Assembly: GCA_900299055.1 (NCBI GenBank)
Contig: OMII01000059.1
Coordinates: forward strand, 1-46,053
Length of the DNA: 46,053 bases
Source of the DNA: Pseudomonadota bacterium
GTDB lineage: Bacteria > Bdellovibrionota_C > UBA2361 > OMII01
Reading direction: 5' to 3'
This document shows, one piece after another, positions 8,158-46,023 of this stretch. Made by a program: the position numbers and the translations under genes. The notes under the pieces are model-generated. The model saw only the letters and a program-made list of their open reading frames with translations. It had not been told where the DNA came from and did no database searches. Each line of letters begins with the position of its first letter. Position 1 is the first letter of the stretch.

Positions 8158-8410
8158 GTGCCCAATACTTTCGGGGGAGACGACGGCGACAATGCAGCCA
8201 GTCGATAGCTTGCGTGTCTACACTGGCGGTTAATGCGCTCGGATGTGGGCCGCCCTTGGGGAGGTCCGTTGTCGTGGCGGCAGTAGCTCCTCTAATGGTC
8301 TAATATGACTAAGTAGTTAAGTCTGTTTTGGTGCTGCCAGCGAGCAAGGTCTATATCGCGAGACCTGGCCATCGCCGGAGATACCGTTTGATTAACGCTG
8401 GGCTTTTGTT

Positions 8411-9001
8411 ATGCTTCCAGCGTCTGTCGTACTTTTTGGAGCCTTAGCGGTCATGAAATACGTAAAGCACGCTGTATGTGTACTTGTTCTCGTTCTGATA
8501 ATGACTTCTTCGGAAGTTTTCGCGGCAACAAATCCGTGTTACGTGGCTCAGTCAAATGCAACGCGTGCCCAGCGTAATCTCGATTACGCGAGCCAGCAGT
8601 TGCTGAGAACACAAGATGCGTATTACGACGCACAGAATCGAGTGAGCTATCAACAGTCGCTCTATCAGGGTTACGTAGATCAGGCATACGCTAATGTGCA
8701 GGCTAGCCGCACGATCAATACCGGTTATGCTGGAGCTTGCGTGGTAAATTTTTTCTTCTTTCGACGTTCGTACGGATGTTTCTCTGGTGCGATATCTTCT
8801 TCTGCGGCTCGCCAGGCGAGCGCCAACTCGCAATATAACGCAGCGGTGGGCAGACGTAATGCGTACATTGTGTACGCGCAGGGCTACATCCGGCGTGCCG
8901 CTGACAGAGTGAATTACGCGCAGACACAAGTAAACAACTTCACCATCGCCAATGATCAGGCGCAGGTGCAATATCAGCAGTGTCTTAGTTCTAACGCCTA
9001 A
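8411..9001 (+). CDS. Secreted Q/Y/N/A-rich protein with two Cys-bracketed repeats (hypothetical)
   Basis: The likely true start is the ATG at 8453, giving MKYVKHAVCVLVLVLIMTSSEVFA|ATNP, a classic signal peptide. The mature part has four Cys that delimit segments of 68 and 69 aa, joined by VVNFFFFRRSYG. I recognise no family. Confidence 0.55.
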   Translation: MLPASVVLFGALAVMKYVKHAVCVLVLVLIMTSSEVFAATNPCYVAQSNATRAQRNLDYASQQLLRTQDAYYDAQNRVSYQQSLYQGYVDQAYANVQASRTINTGYAGACVVNFFFFRRSYGCFSGAISSSAARQASANSQYNAAVGRRNAYIVYAQGYIRRAADRVNYAQTQVNNFTIANDQAQVQYQQCLSSNA

Positions 9002-9010
9002 GGTTCTCCA

Positions 9011-10195: not shown

Positions 10196-10281
10196 AGGGG
10201 GTTGCTCCCGAAAAAGGGGGAGCCGGGTAGTTCTAAACTGGGTTATACTTTCCCAATGTCAATTGAACAGCAGGTGCGGAC

Positions 10282-33586: not shown

Positions 33587-33985
33587 ATGTCCGGAAATAC
33601 TAGAGATACCAAGCAAAAGCGAGCGATTCTTTCTGCATTTGAGGAGGCTCATCGCCCTCTAACACCCGTGCAGGTCCAAGCGGCGGTATTACGCGAGCTG
33701 CCGAAAGTGAGTCTCGCAACGGTGTATCGAGTCATTAAAACCTTTGTCGAGCAGGGAAGCCTCGTTCCCGTTTCTTTTCCAGGGGCAGCTGATCGTTATG
33801 AGAGTAAGGAGTGCGCAGCGCGCCATCATCATCACTTCTTATGTACGAGCTGCGATCGGGCGTTCGACCTTCCAGGGTGCGGATTGAGGGTTTCGAGTGG
33901 GTTACCGGATGGCTTTGCGATTAGTCGGCATGAAGTAGTTCTGTACGGCTCCTGCGATAGCTGCAAAGGCGCGACAAGCATATGA
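33587..33985 (+). CDS. Fur family metalloregulator (Zur or Fur; type unresolved)
   Basis: 132 aa. It has a winged-helix region KQKRAILSAFEE...SLATVYRVIKTFVEQG, a metal-site segment HHHHFLCTSC and a C-terminal CDSC. Confidence 0.85.
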   Translation: MSGNTRDTKQKRAILSAFEEAHRPLTPVQVQAAVLRELPKVSLATVYRVIKTFVEQGSLVPVSFPGAADRYESKECAARHHHHFLCTSCDRAFDLPGCGLRVSSGLPDGFAISRHEVVLYGSCDSCKGATSI

Positions 33986-36063
33986 ACGGGCACTCTAGCG
34001 GTATAGTCATCCTAGCTAGGCAGGTTGTTCGATGTTTTGGGTGTGCTCTTAGCATCGGTCTTGCGTCATGGGTAGATTGCACTTACGCCGACGAAAATGA
34101 CGTCACGCAGCATTCTGATATTGAGTATCACCTCGATAAGGTGATTGTTGAGTCCTCTCCTTTGCAGGACACGCTTTTTAATTCGACTCAGTCAGTATCC
34201 GTTCTCTCCGGGGCAGACCTCGACGAGCAAGCGAGAAATTCTCTGGGAGATACCCTTGCGCACCAACCAGGTGTGACCTCATCCAGTTTTGGTCCGGGCG
34301 CGGGCAGGCCGATTATTCGTGGCGTAGGAGGAGATAGAGTCCGAATCCTTGAGAATGGCGTCAGCACCCAGGATGTCTCGAGTGTCAGTCCGGATCATCC
34401 TACGACGATCGAGTCTAGCCTCGTAGATAAGATCGAAGTGGTACGTGGCCCCGCAGCGCTGCTGTATGGAACAAGCGCTATCGGAGGAGTCGTAAATACA
34501 TTTGATAAGCGCATCGCCGAGAAGCTTCCCACTAAGCCCGTCAGTGGCACGATGGAGATGCGTGCTGATTCAGTTGATCAGACGCGGTCTGGTGTGTTCG
34601 GTCTCGACGCCCCGGCTGGCCCAATCGTGTTTCATGTCGACGGCTTTAAGCGTCGCTCCGGTGATATCGGGATACCGGGCTTCGCTCGAACTGCGGATCT
34701 ACGGGATTCAGAGCCGCTAGACTATCCTGAGCCAAAAGGGCGTCTGCCTTGGAGTGATACCGATAACAGCAATCTCACACTGGGCTCCTCATATGTCTTC
34801 TCAAAGGGCTTCGTCGGTGCTGCAGTCAGTGAATACGACACGAGATATGGTGTGCCTAATGGTGAGCCTGATGTCAGCATCGATGCTACTCGAAGACGAG
34901 TCGATGTTCGCGCAGGAGTGCGAGACGTAGGAGATGTTATTGAGTCAGTAATTGCACGAGCTGGTCTTGTTTCGTATGACCATACGGAGTACCAGCGAAG
35001 TGACCCTGGCACTCGTTTTAACCAGGATAGTTTTGATAGTCGTCTCGATATCACTCATAAGGAGATCCACTCCCTTCGAGGTACGTGGGGAGTGCAGGTC
35101 CAGGGGGCCACATTTGAGGCGATTGGAGAGGAGGCGTTTCAGCCTCCAACCGATACCGGTATATACTCGGCATTTGGCCTCGAGGAGCTGCTCGTGCGTG
35201 ATGATCTAACGTGGCAGCTTGGAGGCAGGCTTGATTGGAATAACACGTCAACAACTGGGTTTGAGGCTGGAGGGACGGATAATTTCAACGTCGACCAAAC
35301 CACTCTCAGTCAATCAACAGGGGTAGTCTGGGATGTGACCCCAGACTACGCCGCAGCACTCTCAGTGGCGCACACTGAGCGGGCACCTACTGGCCAGGAG
35401 CTCTTTGCTGATGGGCCGCATATTGCGACGGGGGCGTATGAAATAGGAGATCAGAATCTGGGTATTGAGCGCTCTATAGGGACAGATCTTACGTTGCGAA
35501 AAAAAGAGGGAGTAGTTCGAGGATTCATCGGGGGGTTCTTTAATCGGTATTGGAACTATATAAGCCTTAATCCGACTGGAGCAGAGGAAGACAATCTGCC
35601 CGTATATACGTTTCAGGCTGTTAACGCGGACTTTATTGGCTTTGAGTCACAAGTGGCGCTCTTTGTTAGAGATAGAGCTGGAGAGGAGCTGTCGTTTGAT
35701 ATCCAGCCTGATTATGTGTGGGCCAGAGATCGCAATAACGATGAGTATCTCCCTCGTATTCCACCGTTTCGGTTGCAAATCGGTAGCACCTACTACAACA
35801 AAGATATCTGCAGGATTAGGCTCGAGGCGCAGCAGGTTTTTTCACAGAGGAATACCGCGGATTACGAGACCTCGACCGACTCATACACCATGCTCAATCT
35901 CTATGTTACTAAAGAGCTACCGTCGATTATGAGAAATCTTGAGGTCTTTGCCCGGGGAACAAACCTACTCTCAGAGAAGGCGCGGAATCATACATCATTT
36001 ATCAAAGATGTAGCTCCGTTGCCCGGAGCCTCTGCGATGGTCGGGCTACGGATTCGATTTTAG
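33982..36063 (+). CDS. TonB-dependent outer-membrane receptor (metal uptake type)
   Basis: 693 aa. It has the plug motif GAGRPIIRGVGGDRVRILENGV and a C-terminal beta-barrel ending GLRIRF. Its ATG overlaps the fur-family stop (ATGA). Confidence 0.85.
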   Translation: MNGHSSGIVILARQVVRCFGCALSIGLASWVDCTYADENDVTQHSDIEYHLDKVIVESSPLQDTLFNSTQSVSVLSGADLDEQARNSLGDTLAHQPGVTSSSFGPGAGRPIIRGVGGDRVRILENGVSTQDVSSVSPDHPTTIESSLVDKIEVVRGPAALLYGTSAIGGVVNTFDKRIAEKLPTKPVSGTMEMRADSVDQTRSGVFGLDAPAGPIVFHVDGFKRRSGDIGIPGFARTADLRDSEPLDYPEPKGRLPWSDTDNSNLTLGSSYVFSKGFVGAAVSEYDTRYGVPNGEPDVSIDATRRRVDVRAGVRDVGDVIESVIARAGLVSYDHTEYQRSDPGTRFNQDSFDSRLDITHKEIHSLRGTWGVQVQGATFEAIGEEAFQPPTDTGIYSAFGLEELLVRDDLTWQLGGRLDWNNTSTTGFEAGGTDNFNVDQTTLSQSTGVVWDVTPDYAAALSVAHTERAPTGQELFADGPHIATGAYEIGDQNLGIERSIGTDLTLRKKEGVVRGFIGGFFNRYWNYISLNPTGAEEDNLPVYTFQAVNADFIGFESQVALFVRDRAGEELSFDIQPDYVWARDRNNDEYLPRIPPFRLQIGSTYYNKDICRIRLEAQQVFSQRNTADYETSTDSYTMLNLYVTKELPSIMRNLEVFARGTNLLSEKARNHTSFIKDVAPLPGASAMVGLRIRF

Positions 36064-37635: not shown

Positions 37636-38529
37636 CTAGAGGTCTCGGTGTTTTACACTTACGAGGTAGTCTGCGCCCGATACTTTGGCGCTGAGAGCTT
37701 CGGCGATAGCCACGGAGCGGTGCTTGCCACCAGTGCATCCGATACCCACGTTAAGGTACGCCTTACCTTCGAACTGATATTTCGGAAGGAGAAAGCCAAG
37801 TAGCTCAGCATAGCGCGAAACAAATTCCCCCGCGTCGGGGGAGGCGAAAACGTAATCTTTCACCTCAATCTCACGACCGTCGCGTTCTCGGAGCGATTCT
37901 ATAAAATGCGGATTGCGAAGAAACCTGACATCAACAATCAGGTCGCAGTCGAGAGGGATTCCGTGCTTAAACCCGAAGGAGAGGAAGTTAACTCGCAAGT
38001 GCCTTCCTTTAACAGTTCCTAGACTCTCAAGGAAATCTCGCAGCTCACGTTTCAGCGCGTGAACGTTGAAGGATGATGTGTCTACGACGAGGTCCGCCGT
38101 CTCTTTGACCGGCTGTAGTCGAGCGCGCTCGCGCTCGATCGTGTCTTCGAGGGACTTATCTTTTACTGGGTCAAAGCCGGGGTGTGGGCGACGAGTTTCG
38201 CTGTAGCGTTTAACGATTGAGCGGGTGTCCGCGTCGAGAAAGATGACTTTGAGGTTCTGCGGACGATGGGGGCCAGAGCCAATCAGGGGCAGAATGTGTT
38301 TGCGGCTCTCCTGTGAATCGATATCAAGCAGGAGGGCAGTGTTGGCATATCGAGCGCCAGACGATGCGGACAAAGCGAGGAAGCTCGTCACTAAGGGCAC
38401 CGGGAGATTATCCACCACGTAGTACCCGCTGTCACCGAGTAGGTCCATGGCGGTAGATTTGCCAGCTCCCGATAGCCCTGTGACTATGATGAGCGATGTA
38501 AAATGTGAAAATGATTCGAGCGAGCTCAA
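37636..38529 (-). CDS. rapZ: RNase adapter / nucleotide-binding protein RapZ (YhbJ)
   Basis: 297 aa. It has IIVTGLSGAGKSTAMDLLGDSGYYVVDNLP and the C-terminal IGCTGGKHRSV. The TTG start overlaps the hpf stop (TTGA). Confidence 0.9.
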   Translation of the reverse strand: MSSLESFSHFTSLIIVTGLSGAGKSTAMDLLGDSGYYVVDNLPVPLVTSFLALSASSGARYANTALLLDIDSQESRKHILPLIGSGPHRPQNLKVIFLDADTRSIVKRYSETRRPHPGFDPVKDKSLEDTIERERARLQPVKETADLVVDTSSFNVHALKRELRDFLESLGTVKGRHLRVNFLSFGFKHGIPLDCDLIVDVRFLRNPHFIESLRERDGREIEVKDYVFASPDAGEFVSRYAELLGFLLPKYQFEGKAYLNVGIGCTGGKHRSVAIAEALSAKVSGADYLVSVKHRDL

Positions 38530-38840
38530 TGGTGACTGGTGACCTTCTCTTTATGTTTGCGCAGTTGCTGCGTGAGTGAGTCTGTAAGCATATCAATAGA
38601 CGCGTATAGATCTTCGCTCTCTTCCTTTACAATAAAGTCAGCGCCTGAGAGATGCATCGACAATTCTGCTATCTGGCGGCTCTTTTCTACCTTGAGCACC
38701 ATATGAGCTTCGGTGTCTTGATGCGCAAACTTCCGTACACAATGCGTGACCTTGTCAGTTGCATACTGCTTGATGGCATCTGTGGCATCAAGATTTAAAA
38801 AAGCTATATTTATGTGTACGGATTTTGATGAGTCGCCCAT
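38526..38840 (-). CDS. hpf: Ribosome hibernation promoting factor (short HPF/YhbH type)
   Basis: 104 aa. It has INIAFLNLDATDAIKQYATDKV...MVLKVEKSRQIAELSMHLSGADF. An AGGAGGAACC sequence sits directly upstream of the ATG. Confidence 0.85.
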   Translation of the reverse strand: MGDSSKSVHINIAFLNLDATDAIKQYATDKVTHCVRKFAHQDTEAHMVLKVEKSRQIAELSMHLSGADFIVKEESEDLYASIDMLTDSLTQQLRKHKEKVTSHH

Positions 38841-39214
38841 GGTTCCTCCTAATGTGAGCTACACGTGTTTTTTAAAAAAATCTGAAAACGCCTAGTGGAA
38901 AATCCAAAGAAAGCGGGCGGTGCGTCGAAATGAAGAACGAGTGGTGTTGATGTCATGAACCCTCTCTCTTCAAAAATAACCACGCTCTCACTGAAAGGCA
39001 AAGAGAAAGTGGGTTTTTTAGAATAGGTGAAGACCCGGTAGTAGTATCGTGTGCGGTGAAGGAAGAAGGCCCTAGCAGCATCTAAGAAGTGATTCGGCGG
39101 TTTTGCGTGGCGCCATAATGTTTTACAGCTTCTTCGCGCAAAATAGTCGTGCCAGTTGTTGCAGACTCACGTAACCCCCTGATTGTGCAACTCTATGGCC
39201 TTGGTTTGTAGCGG

Positions 39215-40684
39215 CTACAGTATTTGTTTGCGCTGCGAAGACGAGGGGATGCCCAGCGTTTCTCGATATTTGGCTACAGTGCGTCGGGCGATATCGATAT
39301 TTTTGGCCTTAAGCATATCGACAATCTGCTGATCGCTAATGGGGCTCGTGGGGGATTCTGCCGCAATTATGTTTTTGATCTGATCCTTCACAGACGACGA
39401 AGAAATATCGCCCGCGTCGGTTTTAATCCCCGAGGTGAAGAAAAACTTGAGCTCAAAAAGACCTTGAGGAGTGTGAACATACTTCTCGGTAGTAACGCGG
39501 CTGACAGTAGATTCGTGCATCCCAATGTCATCTGCTACATCCTTAAGCACTAACGGCTTGAGGTGAGAAACGCCGTGTTCAAAGAAAGCTCGCTGAAATT
39601 TTACAATGCTCTCTGTTACTCGAAATATTGTTTGCTGCCGCTGTTGAATACTTTTAATCAGCCACGAAGCAGCACGTACTCGCTCCGTTAAGTACGCTTT
39701 GTGCTCGTCTTGCGATGAGCCTGCTTCCTTAAGCAAGCTAGTGTACATGGGATTAATCTGCAACCGTGGAACACCTTCTTCGTTGAGTGTTACTACAAAA
39801 TCTCGACCTACCTTTTGTACGTACACGTCAGGCACGATGTAACGAACTGCCTCGTCTGCGAAGGGGCGACCTGGGCGAGGTTCAAGAGTCCTTATCATCG
39901 CGATTGCGCGCGCGATATCCTCGCGTGTTACGCCCTCTGTCTTGGCAATCGCGTCGTATTTTCGCTTTTCTAATTTATCTAGATGCGAGGAGATGATGCG
40001 TGACTCAAGTCCGTTTGATAATCCGCGCGCCTCAAGCTGTGTTAGGAGACACTCTTGAAGATTCTTCGTGCAGCATCCAATCGGGTCGAGAAATCGTAGC
40101 GTGTCAGCCACCATGGCGACATCTTCGGCCGGGCATCCGCAAATGCTAGCGAGTTCCTCGAATGAGCAATCGAGAAATCCATCGCGGTTGAGGTTCCCGA
40201 CGATGTTTTGAGCGATCATTACGTCCTCGGATGAGAAATCTTGGAACCGAATTTGGGCGAGCAGATGCTGCTCTAGAGTCTCGTTCTGAGTAGCTACGAC
40301 CTCTGGTGGTTGGCGATCCTCAAAATTTGAGGCGCCTTTGGCCGATGCGGAGCCTTGGTAATCAGTAAAGTTCTCAGAGTAATCCTCCCAGTCTACCTTT
40401 GGTTCCGAGCTTGAGGCGTTCGAGGAGTCTTCGGAGTCGGGTGTGCTCAGGGGCCCGGAGAGAACTGTTGGTCCTACCTCCATGCCCTCTGGTGCAGATG
40501 GACTGGCTTTGCTCTCGAACTCCTCTCGGTTCTCTTCAAGTACCGGATTCTCCAGTAGTTCCTTCTGGATCGCCTCTTGGTATTCCAAGCGACCGAGTTG
40601 GAGCAGCTTGATCGCCTGCTGAAGCTGGGGCGTCATTAAGAGCGACTGTCCCATCTTCTGTACGAGTTTGTGCTCTAACCCCAT
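39215..40684 (-). CDS. rpoN: RNA polymerase sigma-54 factor
   Basis: 489 aa. It has the N-terminus LMTPQLQQAIKLLQL, an acidic region II, the HTH MHESTVSRV and the RpoN box ARRTVAKYRETLGIPSS. Confidence 0.95.
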   Translation of the reverse strand: MGLEHKLVQKMGQSLLMTPQLQQAIKLLQLGRLEYQEAIQKELLENPVLEENREEFESKASPSAPEGMEVGPTVLSGPLSTPDSEDSSNASSSEPKVDWEDYSENFTDYQGSASAKGASNFEDRQPPEVVATQNETLEQHLLAQIRFQDFSSEDVMIAQNIVGNLNRDGFLDCSFEELASICGCPAEDVAMVADTLRFLDPIGCCTKNLQECLLTQLEARGLSNGLESRIISSHLDKLEKRKYDAIAKTEGVTREDIARAIAMIRTLEPRPGRPFADEAVRYIVPDVYVQKVGRDFVVTLNEEGVPRLQINPMYTSLLKEAGSSQDEHKAYLTERVRAASWLIKSIQQRQQTIFRVTESIVKFQRAFFEHGVSHLKPLVLKDVADDIGMHESTVSRVTTEKYVHTPQGLFELKFFFTSGIKTDAGDISSSSVKDQIKNIIAAESPTSPISDQQIVDMLKAKNIDIARRTVAKYRETLGIPSSSQRKQIL

Positions 40685-41043
40685 GGCGTTCCTTTCATTT
40701 CTGCAGACCAGGCTGTGTCAGCTTTTGGTCACAGGTGTTCTAGTCTAAATCATTTCCTCTCTAATAGATGTCAGAAGTAGGGGGGAAGGGAGTAAGAAAA
40801 TGGAGCTCGTTAGCAAAAACTGGACCGAGGCGGGGCTTGCTCCATTAAATCAGATAGTTAGTAGGTGTCGTGAATTGGCAACGGCGGTCTTTTCAGTTGT
40901 ATGGCACGGATGGTGGCGATAATCAGCTCTGAGCTCTCCTGCTTGCTTTGGGAGCGTCCGACGAGAGTCAGCGAGACGAATGTTTGACGCGTAGCTCCTC
41001 GCTAGAGACATGACGCGGGGAAGAGTCGTAAGGGTAGGTAAAA

Positions 41044-41604
41044 GTGTATCACGACAAGCAGCCACAGCGACCAGCCAGGGTTATACTGATATCAGGACCC
41101 GGGGGAGCGGGCAAAACGTCCATGGGCGAACGGATTGCGCGTGTGCCTGGTTGGTGCCACATCGCTGAGGATTCGGTGTGGGATGAAATGCCGCGCGACC
41201 CACACTCACCCAGGACTGAAGCCGAGAAGGCTGCGGTGCAGCGACGAGTGGTTGCGTTAGTTGCGCAAAGAGTCCACGAAAGCACAAATGTCGCACTGGA
41301 TTTCATATTGTATGAGGCGCCACCTCAACCGATCGTATACTACCAAACGGAGCTAGCGAAGCTCGGAGTCCAGGTCATAACGTATGTGCTATGCCCATCT
41401 GTCGAGCAAATTCTCGAACGGCAGGCAAAGCGTGGCAATTCTCACGACTCCCAAGCTGGACTCTCCGAACGAAGACGAAATGCACAACACCAAGTAGCGT
41501 GTGCGAGATCCGCTGATATTGACTGCGCGTGGTTAGTGGATTCGTTAGATAATTCAATTGAGATGACGTACCAGCACTTCTTTCGCGCACGAGTGGAAGA
41601 GTAG
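41044..41604 (+). CDS. Small P-loop NTPase/kinase (AAA_33 / chloramphenicol-phosphotransferase-like)
   Basis: 186 aa with a GTG start. It has Walker A ISGPGGAGKTS followed by HIAEDSVWDEM. It is divergent from rpoN. The substrate is unknown. Confidence 0.55.
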   Translation: MYHDKQPQRPARVILISGPGGAGKTSMGERIARVPGWCHIAEDSVWDEMPRDPHSPRTEAEKAAVQRRVVALVAQRVHESTNVALDFILYEAPPQPIVYYQTELAKLGVQVITYVLCPSVEQILERQAKRGNSHDSQAGLSERRRNAQHQVACARSADIDCAWLVDSLDNSIEMTYQHFFRARVEE

Positions 41605-41705
41605 TGTGTTCCTGGCGCTAGCTATGATTGTCCCACAGCGGCGTGATCAATCGTTTTCAAAGAGCAACGACTCACGCTCTGACGCGAGTTTGTGCACGAT
41701 GCAAA

Positions 41706-42131
41706 CTAGGGTTCCTGGGCTTCTATCGAGCGATCAGGTTGCACGATGAATGTTCTCGATATCTGCGACTGGCCAGCTGGGCTCAGGTACTCCTGTGAAG
41801 CGTATTGGATTCCCTGTTTGTGGATGGAGAGCGAGACTCGTTCGCCCGCCATGACCCGGAGGCCAACACCACACGTTCCTTCATTGGTTGTGACGCACGA
41901 AAAGCTACCGACTGACGAGATTACACGAAGGGTCGTATTGGCCTGCGGTTTTCCGGCGACGTTGACTATTCTCGCACGAAGTGTGAACGACAGTGGTTCG
42001 TTGGCTCGTCCGGTAAATCCGGCGAACTCCGCCCCTCGAGTTCCAAGGCCTGTGCCGATAGTGCCTCCTCCGCAGGCGCTGCTTGTGAGGCAAATAAGTG
42101 TGAGGAATAACGACGCGAGCTGCTTTCTCAT
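41706..42131 (-). CDS. Lipoprotein with a beta-sandwich-like (CarboxypepD_reg-like?) body, hypothetical
   Basis: 141 aa. It has the lipobox LTSSAC after MRKQLASLFLTLIC. Its start lies 1 nt after the stop of the upstream gene. The competing plus-strand ORF 41746-42144 has no such features. Confidence 0.55.
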   Translation of the reverse strand: MRKQLASLFLTLICLTSSACGGGTIGTGLGTRGAEFAGFTGRANEPLSFTLRARIVNVAGKPQANTTLRVISSVGSFSCVTTNEGTCGVGLRVMAGERVSLSIHKQGIQYASQEYLSPAGQSQISRTFIVQPDRSIEAQEP

Positions 42132-42132
42132 A

Positions 42133-43029
42133 TCAGAATCCTGATGGTTTCTTGCTTCGCTCTACTCGAGCGAAGCAACTTACAATAACTTTGCAACCAG
42201 CTGTCTTCCCCGGTTGAGGGCGAATATCGCCATCGTGTTCGGACAGCATAGAGCGGGCTTTTTGATGGAATAGCGCCCCTTCATCGAGTAACCAGTCCTG
42301 CACCGATGACAGGGATTCCTCGTACACATTATCAAACTCTGTGCGGGCGTGGAGGTTTGGAACTCGTGGTTGTAGCAGGAGATTCTGTTCGACTGAAAGA
42401 GAGAGGTCGTCGACATCTCGAGCGAGAATTTCATACCCTCGGCCAATGTCACGCGTAATTTCATGGCCAGGGGCTATTAATTTAAGCCCGTGAGGAGTTC
42501 TTTTTACCACACCCATGCGTTCCACTTGCGACAAGATGCTGCTGGGATGAACGTCGCTGGTCACTTCGCGTACCAGCGCATAGAAGCTTTGCGGAGATCC
42601 ATCGATTTCAAGTACACGCGGAGATCCAGAAGCTGTACGCCAGTCCCGCTGATTCTCCCAGGCCGTTAGCACCTTGCGGACGGCGCTATCAGATTCAACG
42701 GGGAGGGTCTCATGAGAGATGATTCTGTCCACGTCCCGTCGGTGCAGGCCAGTGGCGACACTAATACGACTGATGTTGACCTTGGCACCCTCCTGGACTA
42801 GCTGCTCCTGTGCTGTGAGGACAAAGGCTGTTTTGGCACTCTCTAGGAAATCCTGAATGCCAAAACCAGTTCTGAGACATAGACGCGCGACTGGGCGAAG
42901 CATGATGAGCAGTAGGGAGTGCACTGTTTTTGCGTCCAGCCTCATATGTGTAATCATACCATAAATAGATGCGAGGGCACTAAGGGATGACGACGATAGT
43001 ACAGAAAATAAACAACTACCTGACTTCAT
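42133..43029 (-). CDS. Cytoplasmic hypothetical protein with a probable HTH (DUF6502-like, from memory)
   Basis: 298 aa. The segment NISRISVATGLHRRDVDRII looks like a helix-turn-helix. There is no signal peptide. Alternative starts lie at M25 and M29. The family assignment is from recall only. Confidence 0.4.
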   Translation of the reverse strand: MKSGSCLFSVLSSSSLSALASIYGMITHMRLDAKTVHSLLLIMLRPVARLCLRTGFGIQDFLESAKTAFVLTAQEQLVQEGAKVNISRISVATGLHRRDVDRIISHETLPVESDSAVRKVLTAWENQRDWRTASGSPRVLEIDGSPQSFYALVREVTSDVHPSSILSQVERMGVVKRTPHGLKLIAPGHEITRDIGRGYEILARDVDDLSLSVEQNLLLQPRVPNLHARTEFDNVYEESLSSVQDWLLDEGALFHQKARSMLSEHDGDIRPQPGKTAGCKVIVSCFARVERSKKPSGF

Positions 43030-43046
43030 TGTCTAATCCGGTTGCT

Positions 43047-43814
43047 CTAGTGCCGATCACCTGAACTATCAAGCTCGTGAGGCGTAAGAAGAGCCTGGTG
43101 TAACTTCTGGGCTACGTCGTTCAACGCTATTCGTTGCGCCTGACCAAGCGCGCTCGATGCGGAGTGTTCGGAAGTTCCGCCTATTCCCAAGATCTGAGTC
43201 GATGACTGCTCGTCAACCGTGACGAATCTGCCGTTGGCAGAGAACGACAACAGTATTCGGTGAGTGTTAACATCAATTATCTGAATATCAAGACCAACCA
43301 TTCCCACCGTGCGAGAAGATGACTCGTGATATTCGGGGTTAGCTGCGGCTACACCAACGCCGCTCCATAACAAGCCCGGCTCGCCGGTAACAGCGCCTGC
43401 AATTGCAGCGACGAACCCAATCCACCCAAATGAGAAGTCTCTACTCGTCGAGTCTCTCTCTGCCAATTCATTGTATTCCGTAGTCGATGCGCGCACCATG
43501 TAGGGTCCCATCTGCGAGCCTCGTGGTATCGCTTTGCCGCCCGGCACAGAATCATAGAGCACAAAGTTTCCAACACGAGATAGTGTCGTTGTTAGCTGTG
43601 CTGCGATGCGTTGATCGCATGAGGTTGAATCGACAATAATACTTACTCGAGGTTTGGTAGGGTCATAAGGTAGAGAAATCTGCTCGACGCTTGCAGAGGC
43701 AGGACCGTTTGCTAAAGCCCGTGCGTCTAGTGGAGTCCTTGATGAGCAGGCCGAGGTCGTTACGGCAAGGCAGATAAGGCTCATTAGAGTGGAGTGGCAG
43801 CGATATGTCTTCAC
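43047..43814 (-). CDS. CsgG-family lipoprotein (curli-secretion-channel-like fold)
   Basis: 255 aa. It has the lipobox VTTSAC. KPRVSIIVDS...IAAQLTTTLSRVGNFVLYD and TVGMVGLDIQIIDVNTHRILLSFSANG parallel CsgG (...IAVNLRVVNVSTGEILSSVNTS) as I recall it. Confidence 0.6.
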   Translation of the reverse strand: MKTYRCHSTLMSLICLAVTTSACSSRTPLDARALANGPASASVEQISLPYDPTKPRVSIIVDSTSCDQRIAAQLTTTLSRVGNFVLYDSVPGGKAIPRGSQMGPYMVRASTTEYNELAERDSTSRDFSFGWIGFVAAIAGAVTGEPGLLWSGVGVAAANPEYHESSSRTVGMVGLDIQIIDVNTHRILLSFSANGRFVTVDEQSSTQILGIGGTSEHSASSALGQAQRIALNDVAQKLHQALLTPHELDSSGDRH

Positions 43815-43852
43815 GGTAATCCTTGGGGAAATAGTTGTCTTCTTGTCTTGAG

Positions 43853-43878
43853 GCAGCGCTCGAAAATCCGAGCGCTGC
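43853..43878 (-). promoter_or_regulatory. Perfect 10-bp GC-rich intercistronic stem-loop
   Basis: GCAGCGCTCG-aaaatc-CGAGCGCTGC lies between the stop of the secreted-protein gene (43896) and the start of the CsgG-like gene (43814). No U-tract follows it on the transcribed strand. Confidence 0.6.
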
Positions 43879-43895
43879 TGTATTAGTGCGAGTAG

Positions 43896-44399
43896 TTAAT
43901 TGACCTGAAGATTGCCCTCGAACACTGCTTGGCAGCTGGCACCATCAACGTTGCGACGTAAGGTCGCTGTATATCGGAAGTTTGCTGTATAGTCGCTGAG
44001 CACTGGCCCTGCTGATATGACATGAGTGGTTGTGACACCGGCGCGGCGATCAAGTTTTCTGGTGCTGACAGAAAAGCCAGCTCGATTGCCTCTCCCTGTG
44101 AGCTTCATCCCGCCGGAGTCTTGCACTATGAATCGGTATCCACTTTGTCGCACAGAGAAGAGAGCATTAAATGCATCTGATGTTCCGACGCAGCTGGTGC
44201 TTACAAGGTAGAAGGTGCCATGGACGATGGCTGTACTCGATGCGCTCATTCGTTGCCCAGAGCTCGTCTGCGACATTGCCTGCGCTTTCGCAGGATGTGA
44301 GGTCTTAGCCCACGTAGTGTCGGCGAGTGCCGCACTTCGAGTCGTCAGAATAGAGGCAGCTACGAAGATGGTCTTGGTGATGATTGAAACAGAACGCAT
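43896..44399 (-). CDS. Secreted/periplasmic hypothetical protein, first gene of the CsgG-like module
   Basis: I trimmed the start to the ATG at complement 44397-44399, which has an AAGGAG RBS 7 nt upstream. It begins MRSVSIITKTIFVAASILTTRSAALA|DTTW, a signal peptide. The body is Ser/Thr-rich and beta-like with two Cys. Confidence 0.55.
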   Translation of the reverse strand: MRSVSIITKTIFVAASILTTRSAALADTTWAKTSHPAKAQAMSQTSSGQRMSASSTAIVHGTFYLVSTSCVGTSDAFNALFSVRQSGYRFIVQDSGGMKLTGRGNRAGFSVSTRKLDRRAGVTTTHVISAGPVLSDYTANFRYTATLRRNVDGASCQAVFEGNLQVN

Positions 44400-44566
44400 G
44401 ATGTACTCCTTATAAAAATGGAACATTTACCCATATTCGTCGGAGCCGGTTTATCTGCTTCTGTTTTTTTAAGAAAATGCGTAACTAGTTAATAATACGC
44501 GTGTTTTCGCCAGCTGATTTTTAAACTGCCGAGGCTTTGCACCTAGCGCATGAGTATTTGTCGCGA

Positions 44567-45292
44567 TTAGAGCCGGAAATCTCCCCCGAGGTAGTATCGC
44601 CTCGCGCGCTCGGAGTTTGCGATTTGATCAGGGGTTCCCTCTTCAAGCACCTTTCCGTCAACGAGGATATACGACCGATCACAGATCCCTAGGGTCTCTC
44701 GAACGTTATGATCGGTGATAAGCACTCCAATCCCTTTTGCCTTTAACTTCCACACGATCTCTTGGATGTCCTTAATCGCTAGGGGGTCGATGCCGGCGAA
44801 TGGCTCATCCAGAAGGATGAACTGAGGGTTGCGAGCTAAGCATCTACTGATTTCAACTCGGCGGCGCTCTCCGCCTGAAAGAGCACTGGCCATACTTGAG
44901 GACAGGTGAGAAAGCCCCAGCTCTTCGAGTAATTCGGTAAGGCGAGCCTCACGCTCTGTGGACGAAGGAAAATCCATCGTCTCTAGAATTGACATGACAT
45001 TGTCCCGAACTGAAAGTTTGCGGAACACAGAGGCTTCTTGGGGCAGGTAGCCGATGCCGAGTCGTGCTCGAGCATACATCGGCTGCTTGGTGATATCTGA
45101 ATCATTTAGGGTTACAGAGCCGGTATCGGGGGCTGCCAGTCCGACGCACATATAAAATGTCGTGGTCTTTCCAGCGCCGTTGGGGCCTAAAAGGCCAACG
45201 ACCTCTCCTGCGTGTACTGATACGCTCACTCCGTTGACTACACGTCTCCCGCTGTAGGCTTTGGTGACGTTATTCGTTTTGAGCGTCGTCAT
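44567..45292 (-). CDS. lptB: LPS export ABC transporter ATP-binding protein LptB
   Basis: 241 aa. It has GLLGPNGAGKTTTFYM, LSGGERRRVEISR, ILLDEPFAGIDP and the C-terminal ARRYYLGGDF. Confidence 0.9.
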   Translation of the reverse strand: MTTLKTNNVTKAYSGRRVVNGVSVSVHAGEVVGLLGPNGAGKTTTFYMCVGLAAPDTGSVTLNDSDITKQPMYARARLGIGYLPQEASVFRKLSVRDNVMSILETMDFPSSTEREARLTELLEELGLSHLSSSMASALSGGERRRVEISRCLARNPQFILLDEPFAGIDPLAIKDIQEIVWKLKAKGIGVLITDHNVRETLGICDRSYILVDGKVLEEGTPDQIANSERARRYYLGGDFRL

Positions 45293-45306: not shown

Positions 45307-46023
45307 TCAGTGGCGTCTGCGAGTGTGAAATGGTCTCTGCGGGTGATCGTGATGCTCGTGCACTGAATGCTCTGAGTCAAGCATGGTCTTTAGTATCTGA
45401 GCTCTTTGCGTATCCTCTCGGGAGAATCCTGTAATTTCTAGGAGGCTAATCAGCTCATGGAGCAGGGGCGAGCGTTTGTAAGAGCCAGCTTTGAGATTTT
45501 TCGGCGCTATTGTGCGCACTTTTGTCCAAAGGGTTAGAAGCATGACGATTCTTTCACGCTCCTTTCGGGGCACCATCAGATGAGTGAAGCATTCGCTTAA
45601 ACGCTCGTTTAGATCGGCCGATGTCGTGATTGACTCCGCTAGGTCACGCAGCCAAATCGAATCGCCAGAGGCAAAGAGGCCGATAATAGAGAGCACAACG
45701 GTGGGCGAGATGTCGGCCCCTTCCACGATAGCGTCATCTATCTTTTCCATGCAGATACTAAAATCGCTCTCAGCGGAAAGGAGTCGCCCACTGTTTTCTA
45801 ATAGTTCAGGAAGTAGGTGCTCGAGGAGCCCAGTTTCTCCGAGAAGTGATAAAATTGTCAGAAAACATCCAGACGTGAGATCTTTTTTAAGTTCATCAAA
45901 AACTCGAACTTGCGAGCTTTGATTGATCAACTGGGCGTTGGCAACGATGGAGGACCAGCATTGGGGATCGATATGGAACCCGTTTCGTGCTGAGTGTCTC
46001 ACCACACGAAGCATACGCACTGG
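45307..46023 (-). CDS. Poly(A) polymerase / CCA-adding enzyme family protein, C-terminal part (5' end truncated by the contig end)
   Basis: The reading frame stays open to the contig end. It begins ..DPVRMLRVVRHSARNGFHI, the DPxRxLRAxRF motif that links the head and RNA-binding regions of this family. The tail is His-rich (HEHHDHPQRPFHTRRRH). Confidence 0.7.
   Translation of the reverse strand, partial: PVRMLRVVRHSARNGFHIDPQCWSSIVANAQLINQSSQVRVFDELKKDLTSGCFLTILSLLGETGLLEHLLPELLENSGRLLSAESDFSICMEKIDDAIVEGADISPTVVLSIIGLFASGDSIWLRDLAESITTSADLNERLSECFTHLMVPRKERERIVMLLTLWTKVRTIAPKNLKAGSYKRSPLLHELISLLEITGFSREDTQRAQILKTMLDSEHSVHEHHDHPQRPFHTRRRH

What the first reader, a model, noticed from the sequence alone, without database searches (positions are those of the whole stretch)
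40685..44566. The conserved lptB-rpoN linkage is split by a 3.9-kb insert carrying a CsgG-like lipoprotein module
lptB and rpoN are adjacent in most Proteobacteria. Here five genes sit between them. Four are on the same strand as lptB and rpoN and look like one operon: a signal-peptide protein (167 aa), a CsgG-family lipoprotein (255 aa), a cytoplasmic HTH-like protein (298 aa, 17-nt gap) and a second lipoprotein (141 aa, 1-nt gap). A P-loop kinase gene lies divergent from rpoN. CsgG-fold lipoproteins form outer-membrane secretion channels (curli) or periplasmic scaffolds. None of the usual partners is present: no CsgE/F/A/B and none of the small accessory lipoproteins that often accompany CsgG-like genes. 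The upstream secreted protein is not curlin-like. An envelope module of channel-like lipoprotein, small lipoprotein, periplasmic protein and cytoplasmic DNA-binding-like protein, embedded in the LPS-export / sigma-54 locus, is not an arrangement I know.
Basis: partly seen in the sequence, partly recalled or inferred. Interest (0 to 1): 0.65.

Follow-up and report, generated by a model that had tools for sequence, protein, structure and literature searches.

The report
CsgG-like envelope cassette in Bdellovibrionota
Between the LPS-export gene lptB and the sigma-54 gene rpoN, an uncultured predatory-type bacterium carries a conserved, uncharacterised four-gene envelope cassette: a small secreted protein, a curli-channel-like lipoprotein that lacks the channel's narrow gate, a new kind of DNA-binding regulator, and a second lipoprotein.

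Summary
lptB (44567-45292) and rpoN (39215-40684) are separated by five genes with no compositional anomaly.

Four of them form a cassette that recurs in six distinct relatives, all uncultured freshwater Bdellovibrionota:
- **ORF-A:** a secreted protein of 167 aa.
- **C:** a CsgG-like lipoprotein.
- **R:** a DUF6502 protein.
- **D:** a small lipoprotein.

**CsgG-like call.** It passes fold and family tests. The window protein itself is below Pfam's threshold. It also lacks the constriction loop that defines CsgG translocators.

**Two joined units.** R-D is an old pair, found in several copies per genome across Bdellovibrionota. C also occurs alone in other genomes. ORF-A is an orphan family.

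**Regulatory elements.** Conserved palindromes sit at the ORF-A promoter region and directly before R's start codon. Related palindromes precede DUF6502 genes elsewhere. This suggests R is an autoregulator that also controls A-C. A covarying hairpin follows ORF-A.

**Genomic position.** The lptB/rpoN position is lineage-specific. One lineage has the cassette after mltA.

**Most likely function (inferred).** A regulated outer-membrane export or anchoring unit for ORF-A, analogous to HfaA-HfaB or curli.

**Verdict.** New variant of a known kind, of moderate interest.

The parts
44567..45292 (-). lptB, the LPS-export ABC ATPase. It is the upstream flank and is not part of the cassette.
   Evidence: TIGR04406 scores 368 bits against a cut-off of 240. 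A pcnB-like gene precedes it here and in relatives.
44415..44461 (-). Promoter-like region of ORF-A. It has a conserved GAAGCA (44461..44456), a non-conserved 17-nt spacer, GAATAT (44438..44433), and the palindrome ATGGGTAAATGTTCCAT (44434..44418). The palindrome is followed by a T-run and the AAGGAG ribosome-binding site (44411..44406).
   Evidence: It is conserved in six distinct cassettes, including the mltA-context one, while the spacer varies. A PWM built from the palindromes gives 15 hits of at least 17 bits in 565 kb, against a mean of 0.3 in block shuffles. The new hits lie next to DUF6502 genes. No sigma-54 -24/-12 match was found here.
43896..44399 (-). ORF-A, a secreted 167-aa protein. 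It has a signal peptide, a variable linker of about 35 aa, and a beta-rich domain of about 105 aa with two invariant Cys. It belongs to an orphan family.
   Evidence: There are no Pfam or NCBIfam hits. Only 11 clusters were found among 5.8e9 proteins, and 11 representatives among 1.84e9. No PDB relative was found by sequence profile. In the loci examined it was found only inside the cassette.
43853..43878 (-). GC-rich stem-loop between ORF-A and the CsgG-like gene. It has an 11-bp stem, dG about -22 kcal/mol, and no U-tract.
   Evidence: It is present in five distinct cassettes with different sequences. Of 11 predicted pairs, 3 show compensatory double changes.
43047..43814 (-). C, a CsgG/HfaB-superfamily outer-membrane lipoprotein of 255 aa with lipobox Cys23. 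It keeps counterparts of the TM1 and TM2 hairpins but has no constriction loop. A 6-residue linker (DSTSCD), with a clade-conserved Cys66, takes the loop's place.
   Evidence: PF03783 scores 18.4 bits, below the gathering cut-off of 20.8. Of 37 family members, 22 hit PF03783, the best at 6.9e-9. The AF2 model has pLDDT 71.9. The top 25 Foldseek PDB hits are all CsgG, E 1.9e-8. hhalign against E. coli CsgG gives E 5e-5 and aligns helix alpha1 and the TM1 and TM2 regions. The loop deletion is visible in alignment A1.
42946..42962 (-). Palindrome-like element ATGGTATGATTACACAT abutting the DUF6502 start codon. It contains an extended -10-like TGgTATGAT 7 nt before the ATG. This suggests a leaderless R-D transcript and an autoregulatory operator.
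   Evidence: The block TTTATGGTAYNATTRCACAT|ATG is conserved in six cassettes and in L018 and L019. The pattern class occurs within 48 nt upstream of the R start in 13 of 35 loci, against 0.23% of background windows (the pattern was defined after seeing the data).
42133..42945 (-). R, a cytoplasmic DUF6502 protein of about 270 aa (the longest ORF reaches 43029). It has an N-terminal HTH with an invariant TG(L/I)HRRDV recognition helix, a winged helix, and a conserved HARTE(F/Y)DN motif.
   Evidence: PF20112 scores 70.6 bits against a cut-off of 27. The AF2 model has pLDDT 88. No whole-fold match was found in PDB or BFVD, only local winged-helix or HTH hits with E of at least 0.04. No paper mentions DUF6502.
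41706..42131 (-). D, a 141-aa lipoprotein with the motif Cys-GGGTIGTG followed by a beta-sandwich. Its start lies 1 nt after the R stop.
   Evidence: A lipoprotein with the motif C..GG[TS]xG[TS][GS] follows DUF6502 in most of the 32 genome loci. Seven of 8 such partners hit CarboxypepD_reg PF13620 just after the motif. The window protein has no direct Pfam hit, but my HMM links it to them.
41670..41689 (-). Terminator-like hairpin after D, lying between the convergent D and kinase genes.
   Evidence: The consensus scan gives 8 pairs followed by a T-rich tail.
41044..41604 (+). AAA_33 P-loop kinase gene. It is divergent from rpoN and convergent with D. It lies in the insert but is not part of the cassette.
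   Evidence: PF13671 gives E 3.6e-11. The gene is present in L057-L061. It is absent from the cassettes of L001-L004 and L007, where other genes follow D.
39215..40684 (-). rpoN (sigma-54), the downstream flank. It is followed by hpf, rapZ and metK.
   Evidence: The 360-nt divergent intergenic region shared with the kinase gene implies that rpoN has its own promoter.

Best explanation
The insert holds a conserved, lineage-specific envelope cassette of uncultured freshwater Bdellovibrionota. It is built from two juxtaposed units.

**Unit 1, ORF-A to C.** ORF-A is a small, Sec-exported, probably disulfide-bonded orphan protein. C is an outer-membrane lipoprotein of the CsgG/HfaB superfamily. It keeps the two membrane hairpins but has lost the constriction loop. 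I infer that C oligomerises in the outer membrane and exports or anchors ORF-A at the cell surface, much as HfaB does for HfaA or CsgG for CsgA. The conserved hairpin after ORF-A would keep ORF-A in excess over C.

**Unit 2, R to D.** R (DUF6502) is a cytoplasmic HTH and winged-helix protein. D is a small lipoprotein with a transthyretin-like (CarboxypepD_reg-type) beta-sandwich, and its translation is coupled to that of R. I infer that R is a dimeric, autoregulated DNA-binding protein. It would bind the palindrome overlapping its own leaderless promoter and the related palindrome at the ORF-A promoter. That places A-C under R's control.

**Genomic position.** The location between lptB and rpoN is an inherited accident of synteny in one subclade, not a functional coupling. 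The kinase gene is an unrelated neighbour.

**Shown:**
- gene content;
- cassette conservation;
- the CsgG fold and family of C;
- loss of the constriction loop;
- family membership of R;
- the R-D pairing;
- the conserved palindromes and the hairpin.

**Inferred:**
- channel formation by C;
- ORF-A as cargo;
- R as the protein that binds the palindromes;
- the transcription-unit boundaries.
For: - **Cassette conservation.** A-C-R-D recurs in the same order in six distinct relatives, with ORF-A identity from 54 to 80%:
  - L001-4 and L017;
  - L007-9;
  - L057-61.
  My HMM survey confirms this.
- **C belongs to the CsgG superfamily.**
  - 22 of 37 family members hit PF03783.
  - The top 25 Foldseek hits are all CsgG, E down to 1.9e-8, TM about 0.5.
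  - hhalign aligns helix alpha1 and the TM1 and TM2 hairpins.
- **Loss of the constriction loop tracks ORF-A.** The loop is 20-60 aa in the aligned family members from outside the cassette. It is about 20 aa in the mltA-type cassette and deleted in the lptB-type cassettes.
- **ORF-A is encoded first and followed by a covarying stem-loop**. This fits a product made in excess.
- **R-D is a core pair.**
  - Most of the 32 genome loci have R immediately followed by a GGGTxGTG lipoprotein.
  - Several copies occur per MAG.
  - D-class proteins carry CarboxypepD_reg.
- **R as a DNA binder.**
  - The HTH and winged helix appear in a pLDDT-88 model.
  - The recognition-helix motif is invariant.
  - Palindromes abut R start codons in 13 of 35 loci against 0.23% of background windows.
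  - The related palindrome class at the ORF-A promoter also flanks R or C in L012, L029, L034, L036 and L039.
  - A hybrid site in L042 links the two classes.
- **The cassette looks self-contained.**
  - It has its own promoter-like element.
  - A terminator-like hairpin follows D.
  - The kinase gene is convergent with D.
  - The cassette also occurs after mltA.
Against: - No direct evidence shows that C forms a pore or that ORF-A crosses the outer membrane.
- The TM1-equivalent segment, GFVAAIAGAVTGEPGLLWSGVGVAAANP, is almost entirely Gly, Ala and hydrophobic residues. It lacks the alternating polar pattern of CsgG TM1. AF2 models it as two low-confidence helices, pLDDT about 55.
- The window protein is below the Pfam threshold. 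The family profile finds no CsgG in PDB by sequence.
- Most family members of C are stand-alone genes with no obvious cargo. The family may therefore have a cargo-independent role.
- The palindromes are absent or unrecognisable in about half of the R loci. The second pattern was defined after seeing the data.
- No sigma-70 consensus promoter was found by the scan.
- Read-through from lptB cannot be excluded, because no terminator was found after lptB.
Confidence: 0.45

Rival explanations
1. C is not a channel. It is a periplasm-facing outer-membrane lipoprotein scaffold of the LptE, LpoB, PelC or TolB-N type. ORF-A is its periplasmic partner. The cassette would act in envelope or cell-wall maintenance rather than in secretion.
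For: - The constriction loop is missing.
- TM1 is atypically hydrophobic and is modelled with low confidence.
- After CsgG, Foldseek finds DUF330, HpaA, PelC and LptE.
- Neighbouring genes recur from envelope and cell-wall biology:
  - lptB in the window;
  - mltA in L007;
  - SLT-LysM and a PBP-type carboxypeptidase near P0022;
  - M48 peptidases, one with a SPOR domain, and SurA next to R-D pairs.
- Most C homologs are orphan genes with no cargo gene.
Against: - The best structural matches by a wide margin are CsgG chains, headed by the membrane-bound 4uv3.
- Both hairpin regions are retained and strongly conserved. The AAANP and GIAGA blocks are nearly invariant.
- Within the cassette, a secreted protein gene directly precedes C, with a stoichiometry-setting hairpin between them. 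This resembles subunit-plus-exporter operons.
Confidence: 0.3
2. The palindromes are not DUF6502 operators. DUF6502 would have another role, such as a nucleoid-associated, sigma-like or chaperone-type protein. The conserved DNA blocks would be ordinary promoter or 5'-UTR elements recognised by another factor.
For: - No significant structural match ties R to a known repressor family.
- The palindromes overlap -10-like hexamers, so part of their conservation could be promoter conservation.
- About half of the R loci lack a recognisable site.
- The strongly conserved HARTE(F/Y)DN motif lies outside the HTH and is unexplained.
Against: - Dyad symmetry extends beyond the -10 element.
- The same dyad family follows R genes through very different genomic contexts and across protein divergence down to 35-40% identity.
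- In L034, one site precedes each of the divergent C and R genes.
- The recognition helix is invariant, matching a conserved half-site.
Confidence: 0.15
3. The cassette is functionally coupled to its flanks. It would be co-transcribed with lptB, or belong to the sigma-54 regulon, and would serve LPS export or its regulation.
For: - The cassette is adjacent to lptB and on the same strand in five of six cassette types.
- No terminator was detected between lptB and ORF-A.
- In E. coli, lptB and rpoN share an envelope-stress-controlled operon (PMC4635465).
Against: - The cassette lies after mltA, with no lptB or rpoN within 8 kb, in L007-9.
- rpoN is 5.5 kb away in L001-3 and is absent within the 6.6 kb held downstream in L004.
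- There is no -24/-12 sigma-54 element in the lptB/ORF-A spacer with up to 3 mismatches.
- A cassette-specific promoter-like block travels with ORF-A into the mltA context.
- A terminator-like hairpin and a convergent gene separate D from rpoN.
- R-D pairs and C genes occur elsewhere with no lpt genes nearby.
Confidence: 0.07
4. The 3.9-kb segment is a recently acquired mobile or defence island.
For: It interrupts a widely conserved gene linkage and contains orphan genes and a P-loop NTPase.
Against: - GC, GC3 and codon usage are indistinguishable from the rest of the window.
- There are no flanking direct or inverted repeats and no tRNA.
- No integrase or transposase was found among the five products.
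- There are no meaningful PADLOC hits.
- The identical layout persists in relatives at 57% ORF-A identity.
Confidence: 0.03

Closest known systems
Curli secretion system (type VIII secretion): CsgG channel with CsgE, CsgF and the CsgA/CsgB subunits
   Same: - C is an N-terminally lipidated outer-membrane protein with the CsgG fold.
- Family members hit PF03783.
- C has counterparts of helix alpha1 and of the TM1 and TM2 hairpins.
- A secreted protein is encoded in the same transcription direction, immediately upstream.
   Different: - The constriction loop carrying the Phe/Asn/Tyr rings is described as required in CsgG-like translocators (PMC4594475). Here it is replaced by a 6-residue linker.
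- There are no CsgE, CsgF, CsgA or CsgB homologs.
- ORF-A has no curlin repeats and probably has a folded, disulfide-bonded domain.
- TM1 is Gly/Ala-rich and hydrophobic on both faces.
- The window protein is below Pfam's gathering score.
Caulobacter holdfast anchor HfaA-HfaB-HfaD
   Same: The gene logic matches: a small secreted protein is encoded directly upstream of a CsgG-like lipoprotein, on which its outer-membrane targeting depends (PMC6707917). NCBI names one relative of C 'CsgG/HfaB family protein'.
   Different: - C and ORF-A match no NCBIfam model at E up to 1, apart from one weak, unrelated hit for ORF-A (T7SS_EccB, E 0.008).
- There is no HfaD-like gene.
- No hfs gene is among the Pfam-annotated neighbours of the cassette.
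- The partners here are DUF6502 and a TTR-like lipoprotein.
Non-channel lipoproteins of the same superfold (PelC, LptE, LpoB, TolB N-domain, DUF330, HpaA)
   Same: They are lower-ranked Foldseek hits. They are outer-membrane lipoproteins, and PelC forms rings. A scaffold role would fit the missing constriction.
   Different: These proteins lack the two long membrane hairpins that C retains. Their E-values are 4-5 orders of magnitude weaker than for CsgG.
Autoregulated dimeric HTH or winged-helix repressors with a palindromic operator over the -10 element (MarR-type logic)
   Same: - R has an HTH and a winged helix.
- 16-17-bp dyads overlap -10-like hexamers at its own start and at the neighbouring operon.
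   Different: - R has no significant sequence or whole-fold similarity to MarR or any solved regulator; the best E is 0.2.
- Its size is about 270 aa.
- It has an extra conserved HARTE(F/Y)DN motif.
- It is obligatorily paired with a translationally coupled lipoprotein gene.
lptCAB-rpoN-hpf-ptsN-rapZ-npr cluster of Proteobacteria
   Same: lptB, rpoN, hpf and rapZ are present in the same order and on the same strand. E. coli keeps lptB, rpoN, ptsN, ptsO and rapZ in one operon (PMC4635465).
   Different: - lptB is preceded by a pcnB-like gene, not by lptA or lptC.
- 3.9 kb lies between lptB and rpoN.
- rpoN has its own divergent promoter region.
- No ORF of at least 60 aa lies between hpf and rapZ, whose reading frames overlap, so there is no ptsN at that position.

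Membership tests
CsgG (PF03783; curli/T8SS translocator) | Score at or above Pfam's gathering threshold | tested here: not met
   The window protein scores 18.4 bits against 20.8, E 1.4e-3, and only residues 147-239 match. Of 37 homologs, 22 match at E up to 0.01, the best at 6.9e-9. Superfamily membership is therefore supported through the family, not by the window protein's own score.
CsgG (PF03783; curli/T8SS translocator) | N-terminal lipobox and lipidated Cys | tested here: met
   Cys23 is invariant in 37 sequences after a hydrophobic signal peptide. Position +2 is Ser.
CsgG (PF03783; curli/T8SS translocator) | CsgG protomer fold | tested here: met
   The AF2 model has pLDDT 71.9. Foldseek PDB ranks 1-25 are all CsgG, headed by 4uv3, 6l7c, 6l7a and 7brm, with E from 1.9e-8 to 1.5e-4. 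The best TM-scores are about 0.5.
CsgG (PF03783; curli/T8SS translocator) | Two transmembrane beta-hairpins (TM1, TM2) that build the 36-stranded barrel | tested here: inconclusive
   hhalign aligns residues 133-160 with CsgG TM1 and the following strands with the TM2 region. The model has long strands at 102-128, 161-181 and 187-208. The TM1 equivalent itself is modelled as low-confidence helices and is nearly all Gly, Ala and hydrophobic residues.
CsgG (PF03783; curli/T8SS translocator) | Constriction loop with stacked Phe / Asn / Tyr rings (0.9-nm gate), described as required in CsgG-like translocators (PMC4594475) | tested here: not met
   Strand beta1 (57-61) joins helix alpha1 (68-79) through 6 residues, DSTSCD. 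E. coli CsgG has about 14 more residues here, including Y51, N55 and F56. The loop is deleted only in the cassette clade.
CsgG (PF03783; curli/T8SS translocator) | Nonameric ring in the outer membrane | not testable with these tools
   Oligomer modelling is not available.
CsgG (PF03783; curli/T8SS translocator) | Genetic partners CsgE, CsgF and a curlin-repeat substrate | tested here: not met
   No Pfam or NCBIfam hit to any Csg protein was found among the window genes scanned, which run from the pcnB-like gene to rpoN. ORF-A has no repeats and no Pfam hit.
HfaA/HfaB holdfast anchor | Small secreted protein encoded upstream of a CsgG-like lipoprotein | tested here: met
   ORF-A lies 81 nt upstream of C in all six cassette types. 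This is an analogy of gene order only.
HfaA/HfaB holdfast anchor | Sequence homology to HfaA, HfaB or HfaD | tested here: inconclusive
   C hits no NCBIfam family at E up to 1, and ORF-A has only a weak, unrelated one (T7SS_EccB, E 0.008). I could not confirm that Hfa models are in that library, and no Hfa sequences were available for a direct comparison.
DUF6502 (PF20112) | Score at or above Pfam's gathering threshold over most of the model | tested here: met
   The score is 70.6 bits against 27. Residues 43-282 match model positions 11-255 of 268. All 32 homologs carry PF20112.
CarboxypepD_reg-like / transthyretin-like beta-sandwich (PF13620), for ORF-D | Pfam match in the window protein | tested here: inconclusive
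   The window ORF-D has no hit at E up to 5. Seven of 8 DUF6502-partner lipoproteins hit PF13620 just after the shared GGGTxGTG motif, one of them above threshold at 46 bits. My ORF-D HMM reaches some of those partners, with E from 5e-18 to 4e-5.
lptB-rpoN conserved linkage | Both genes present and directly adjacent | tested here: not met
   Both genes are identified above curated cut-offs, but 3,882 bp and five genes separate them.

The most novel reading that the evidence does not exclude
A CsgG-family outer-membrane ring has shed its 0.9-nm constriction. In its place is a short turn with a conserved cysteine. This would give a wide, gate-less pore dedicated to exporting or displaying a folded, disulfide-bonded orphan protein (ORF-A). 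Alternatively the ring could be lipid- or partner-filled.

The unit would be switched by DUF6502, a previously undescribed family of autoregulatory DNA-binding proteins. In Bdellovibrionota these proteins come in several copies per genome, each coupled to a variable surface lipoprotein.
Probability: 0.2. Interest if true: 0.7.

Novelty: new variant of a known kind. Interest (0 to 1): 0.5.

Why it matters
**A natural variant of the CsgG channel.** CsgG-type channels are the only known outer-membrane secretion pores built from a lipoprotein ring, and they are used as commercial nanopores. A natural variant that keeps the barrel hairpins but deletes the constriction, paired with its own small folded partner, would show how far this scaffold can be re-purposed.

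**A testable role for a domain of unknown function.** The analysis gives DUF6502 a concrete hypothesis with sequences to test. It would be an autoregulated repressor with a defined 16-17-bp dyad.

**A possible surface-remodelling module.** DUF6502 travels with a variable lipoprotein gene in several copies per genome in Bdellovibrionota, a phylum that includes predatory bacteria. This may be a regulatory module for surface remodelling.

**Limits.** The lptB/rpoN position itself appears to carry no functional meaning. All carriers are uncultured, which limits near-term experiments to heterologous systems.

Tried and rejected
- **Sigma-54 promoter in front of ORF-A.** No TGGCAC-N5-TTGCW match with up to 3 mismatches lies in 44400-44566. 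Window-wide counts equal chance.
- **Sigma-70 consensus scan.** It found nothing on the minus strand upstream of ORF-A, and overall counts equal the shuffles. The promoter-like elements I report come from cross-locus conservation instead.
- **Mobile or defence island.** Rejected on composition, repeats, tRNA and PADLOC.
- **Rfam scan of the window.** No RNA family was found.
- **CsgG-like family profile against PDB sequences.** No CsgG hit. Only fold search and hhalign recover the relationship.
- **DUF6502.**
  - The PDB sequence profile search found nothing.
  - The PDB and BFVD fold searches gave only local HTH or winged-helix matches with E of at least 0.04.
  - There is no literature.
- **ORF-A.** There was no significant hit in any of the following, so no fold could be assigned:
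  - Pfam and NCBIfam;
  - two PDB profile searches, which gave FHA-like at E 0.047 and a monooxygenase at E 0.09, both insignificant;
  - a 1.84-billion-protein profile search, which found only 11 relatives.
- **First genome scan with the full DUF6502 alignment.** It failed for lack of a conserved stretch. It was repeated with 10 sequences.
- **Apparent truncation of DUF6502 in L059 and L060.** This is a gene-calling artefact. The 269-aa frame is intact.
- **Literature on CsgG in Bdellovibrionota.** None was found.

Full report
**1. What is in the window**

On the minus strand the window reads as follows:
- a pcnB-like gene (45307-46020, cut by the window end);
- lptB (44567-45292; TIGR04406, 368 bits);
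- ORF-A (43896-44399);
- a 255-aa lipoprotein (43047-43814);
- a DUF6502 protein (longest ORF 42133-43029);
- a 141-aa lipoprotein (41706-42131);
- on the plus strand, an AAA_33 P-loop kinase (41044-41604);
- rpoN (39215-40684), then hpf, rapZ and metK.

The 167-aa start of ORF-A is supported by an AAGGAG 7 nt upstream. The 141-aa gene starts 1 nt after the DUF6502 stop. GC, GC3 and codon usage of the five genes fall inside the range of the other 29 genes of the window. No flanking repeats, tRNA or Rfam element mark the segment.

**2. The four genes are a conserved cassette**

Exact look-ups of homologs gave six distinct versions of the cassette. All have the order ORF-A, CsgG-like (C), DUF6502 (R), small lipoprotein (D).
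- L057/58 (ORF-A 80% identical) and L059-61 (57%) repeat the entire window layout: pcnB-lptB-A-C-R-D-(kinase)-rpoN-hpf-rapZ-metK.
- L001-3 and L017 have pcnB-lptB-A-C-R-D. About 5.5 kb of other genes then precedes rpoN.
- L004 has no rpoN within the 6.6 kb held downstream.
- L007-9 have the cassette after mltA, with neither lptB nor rpoN nearby.

Named records place these sequences in uncultured freshwater Bdellovibrionota or 'delta proteobacterium' MAGs. The cassette is real and inherited as a unit. Its position between lptB and rpoN is a property of one subclade. The kinase is a variable neighbour.

**3. The cassette is composite**

I scanned one genome per species with a DUF6502 alignment and obtained 32 loci, almost all labelled Bdellovibrionota, Bdellovibrionales or delta-proteobacterial MAGs. 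I then surveyed them with HMMs built here.
- R is almost always followed, with overlapping or near-touching reading frames, by a lipoprotein. The lipidated Cys of that lipoprotein is followed by GGGTxGTG-like residues. The partners range from 137 to about 400 aa. In L044 the partner is 776 aa and divergent, and in L038 it lies upstream.
- Seven of eight such partners hit the CarboxypepD_reg (transthyretin-like) domain directly after the motif.
- The window's ORF-D has no Pfam hit of its own. It shares the motif and is linked to those partners by my HMM.
- Several MAGs carry two R-D pairs. L032 has two in tandem, and L004 has a second pair.
- M48 peptidases flank R-D in six loci.

C behaves differently. 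Homologs at 46% identity or less are stand-alone genes in unrelated neighbourhoods. In one MAG, C (L010) and R (L031) lie on different contigs. L034 is the exception, where C sits divergently upstream of R-D.

ORF-A is an orphan. It has 11 clusters among 5.8 billion proteins and 11 representatives among 1.84 billion. It has no Pfam, NCBIfam or PDB relative. In the loci examined it occurs only inside the cassette. The cassette is therefore [A-C] joined to [R-D].

**4. Is the 255-aa protein CsgG-like?**

Yes at superfamily level, no as a CsgG-type translocator.

Evidence for the superfamily:
- The window protein scores below Pfam's threshold (18.4 against 20.8 bits), but 22 of 37 family members hit PF03783, down to 6.9e-9.
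- An AlphaFold2 model has pLDDT 71.9. Its 25 best PDB matches are all CsgG (E from 1.9e-8, best TM-scores about 0.5). They are followed by TraT, DUF330, HpaA, PelC and LptE.
- hhalign against E. coli CsgG gives E 5e-5. The alignment pairs three regions:
  - helix alpha1;
  - the Gly/Ala-rich block GFVAAIAGAVTGEPGLLWSGVGVAAANPEY with the TM1 hairpin;
  - the following strands with the TM2 region.

Evidence against a CsgG-type translocator:
- The loop that forms CsgG's 0.9-nm constriction carries the Phe, Asn and Tyr rings, described as required in CsgG-like translocators (PMC4594475). It has no counterpart here.
- Strand beta1 (57-61) is joined to alpha1 (68-79) by six residues, DSTSCD. They include a cysteine conserved in the clade.
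- In the family alignment this loop is 20-60 aa in the members from outside the cassette. It is about 20 aa in the mltA-type cassette and deleted in the lptB-type cassettes. Loss of the loop therefore tracks the presence of ORF-A.

One caveat applies to the hairpins. The TM1 equivalent has only about 4 polar residues in 28, and AF2 models it as low-confidence helices. Barrel formation is therefore not established.

**5. DUF6502**

- The Pfam match is solid (70.6 bits). No paper mentions the family.
- The model is confident (pLDDT 88). It shows an N-terminal helical bundle with an HTH, whose recognition helix carries the invariant TG(L/I)HRRDV. It also shows a winged helix (121-156) and a helical C-terminal part.
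- A further invariant motif, HARTE(F/Y)DN, lies in a loop.
- Neither PDB nor BFVD holds a significant whole-fold match. Only local winged-helix or HTH hits appear, with E of at least 0.04.
- Homolog alignment shows conservation beginning at Met29 of the long ORF, the ATG at 42945.

**6.

(a) *Upstream of ORF-A.* All six cassettes share GAAGCA, a 17-nt non-conserved spacer, GAATAT, the dyad ATGGGTAAATGTTCCAT, a T-run and AAGGAG. This includes the mltA-context cassette. The window coordinates are 44461..44406.

I built a PWM from eight such dyads. It finds 15 sites of at least 17 bits in 565 kb of distinct loci, against a mean of 0.3 (maximum 2) in block shuffles. The seven new sites lie in the following places:
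- next to DUF6502 genes in L012, L029 and L036;
- just after D in L018 (two sites);
- further downstream in L039.

Among the training sites, L034 has one dyad before each of the divergent C and R genes.

(b) *Directly before the R start codon.* All cassettes, and also L018 and L019, share TTTATGGTAYNATTRCACAT|ATG. There is no Shine-Dalgarno sequence. The block contains an extended -10-like TGnTATAAT or TGnTATGAT 7 nt before the ATG. This suggests a leaderless R-D mRNA.

Many other R loci carry GTGTGTAAATTACACAT-type dyads at the same place. The generalised pattern occurs within 48 nt upstream of R in 13 of 35 loci, against 0.23% of background windows. The pattern was chosen post hoc and some loci are related, so the nominal P value is inflated. 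L042 carries a hybrid, ATGGGTAACTTACACTT, that links the two dyad classes.

(c) *Between ORF-A and C.* A GC-rich stem-loop (43878..43853, about -22 kcal/mol) is kept in five cassettes with different sequences. Three of its 11 pairs show compensatory changes. It has no U-tract.

(d) *After D.* A terminator-like hairpin follows D (41689..41670).

**7. Most likely mechanism**

*Shown:*
- the parts;
- their conservation;
- the fold and family of C;
- the loss of the constriction loop;
- the R-D pairing;
- the dyads;
- the hairpin.

*Inferred:*
1. R is a dimeric DNA-binding autoregulator. Its operator overlaps its own leaderless promoter. A related operator at the ORF-A promoter puts A-C under its control.
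2. The hairpin after ORF-A attenuates transcription or stabilises the upstream mRNA, so that ORF-A is made in excess of C.
3. C oligomerises in the outer membrane and exports or anchors ORF-A. This matches HfaB, on which outer-membrane targeting of HfaA and HfaD depends (PMC6707917), and CsgG with CsgA.
4. D is an outer-membrane or periplasmic beta-sandwich lipoprotein. Its function is unknown, but it is the ancestral output of R.

I give this composite model a confidence of 0.45. The sub-claims differ: about 0.95 for cassette conservation, about 0.9 for C in the CsgG superfamily, about 0.7 for R as a DNA-binding autoregulator, and about 0.3 for ORF-A as cargo of a C channel.

**8. Rivals**

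- *Non-channel scaffold role for C (0.3).* It fits the missing constriction, the odd TM1 composition, the orphan status of most C homologs, and the recurring envelope and cell-wall neighbours (mltA, SLT, PBP, M48-SPOR, SurA, lptB).
- *The dyads are recognised by another factor (0.15).*
- *Functional coupling to LPS export or sigma-54 (0.07).* It is contradicted by the mltA-context cassette, the lack of a -24/-12 element, and the cassette's own promoter-like and terminator-like elements.
- *Mobile or defence island (0.03).* It is contradicted by composition, the lack of repeats, the lack of meaningful PADLOC hits, and deep synteny.

**9. Comparison with known systems, and verdict**

The cassette works most like the HfaA-HfaB and CsgA-CsgG pairs. 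It is not a member of either system, because the constriction loop and the partner genes are absent.
- R is a member of DUF6502, which has no described function.
- D is probably a CarboxypepD_reg-type lipoprotein.
- The interruption of lptB-rpoN is real, and E. coli keeps these genes in one operon (PMC4635465). It appears incidental.

I rate the finding a new variant of a known kind, with interest 0.5. It is not a new principle. It does offer a natural constriction-less CsgG relative with a dedicated partner, and a testable function and operator for an uncharacterised protein family that is multi-copy in a phylum that includes predatory bacteria.

Noticed in passing
L012, L014-L048 (genome and metagenome loci); window 41706-42945: DUF6502 genes are almost always followed by a translationally coupled lipoprotein whose lipidated Cys is followed by GGGTxGTG and one or more CarboxypepD_reg-like domains. 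These partners range from 137 to about 400 aa. One carries a dockerin-like C-terminus, and several have long Pro/Thr linkers. Several MAGs carry 2 pairs, and L032 has two in tandem. This looks like an expanded regulator-plus-variable-surface-lipoprotein module of Bdellovibrionota.
   Followed up: partly
L014-L016, L018, L019, L022: An M48 metallopeptidase gene sits next to the DUF6502-lipoprotein pair in six loci. In L014 it carries a SPOR domain, and in L016 it is followed by a SurA-like gene. It lies downstream on the same strand or upstream on the opposite strand.
   Followed up: no
window 45307-46020 and 44567-45292; L001, L004, L057, L059: lptB is preceded by a pcnB/CCA-type nucleotidyltransferase gene with a 14-nt gap, rather than by lptC-lptA. 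This pcnB-lptB pairing is conserved in all lptB-context relatives.
   Followed up: no
window 37636-40684: rpoN, hpf and rapZ are kept in order, but there is no ptsN between hpf and rapZ, whose reading frames overlap by 4 nt. A 374-nt gap separates rpoN from hpf (38841-39214). Gene callers place a 42-aa ORF there in L057 and L058.
   Followed up: no
L001-L003 11913-13073 (-); L017 11049-12185 (-): A protein of 378-386 aa lies between the cassette and rpoN and gives a weak hit to my DUF6502 HMM (E 6e-8 to 8e-10). It may be a distant, longer paralog. A DUF4397 protein gene and a hexapeptide-transferase gene lie beside it.
   Followed up: no
window 43617-43619 (Cys66 of the CsgG-like protein): The short turn that replaces the CsgG constriction loop carries a cysteine (T-S-C-D) conserved in all lptB-type cassette homologs. 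It is the only Cys of the mature protein besides the lipidated one. In a ring it would form a circle of thiols, or it could pair with a partner.
   Followed up: no
L042 about 7965-7991: The site ATAATGGGTAACTTACACTTAT|ATG, directly before a DUF6502 start, combines the left half of the ORF-A-promoter dyad (ATGGGTA) with the right half of the R-start dyad (TTACAC). This suggests that both dyad classes are variants of one operator.
   Followed up: partly
L034 780-960: Here a CsgG-like gene and a DUF6502-lipoprotein pair are divergent. The 124-nt spacer holds two ATGGG-N7-TCCAT dyads. Each overlaps a TATAAT and lies within about 15 nt of the respective start codon. It looks like a minimal divergent, co-regulated arrangement.
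   Followed up: partly
window 34068-34083: A dyad-like match, ATGGGTAGATTGCACT, lies 86 nt inside the 5' end of the 693-aa ORF at 33982-36063. It is probably chance and was not examined.
   Followed up: no
L011 (Candidatus Sumerlaeota MAG) 3474-10534: A distant CsgG-like homolog (32% identity) sits directly after an RND efflux pair (MFP and ACR_tran). It overlaps by 4 nt with a 570-aa protein that has no Pfam hit. This is a different possible operon context for the family.
   Followed up: no
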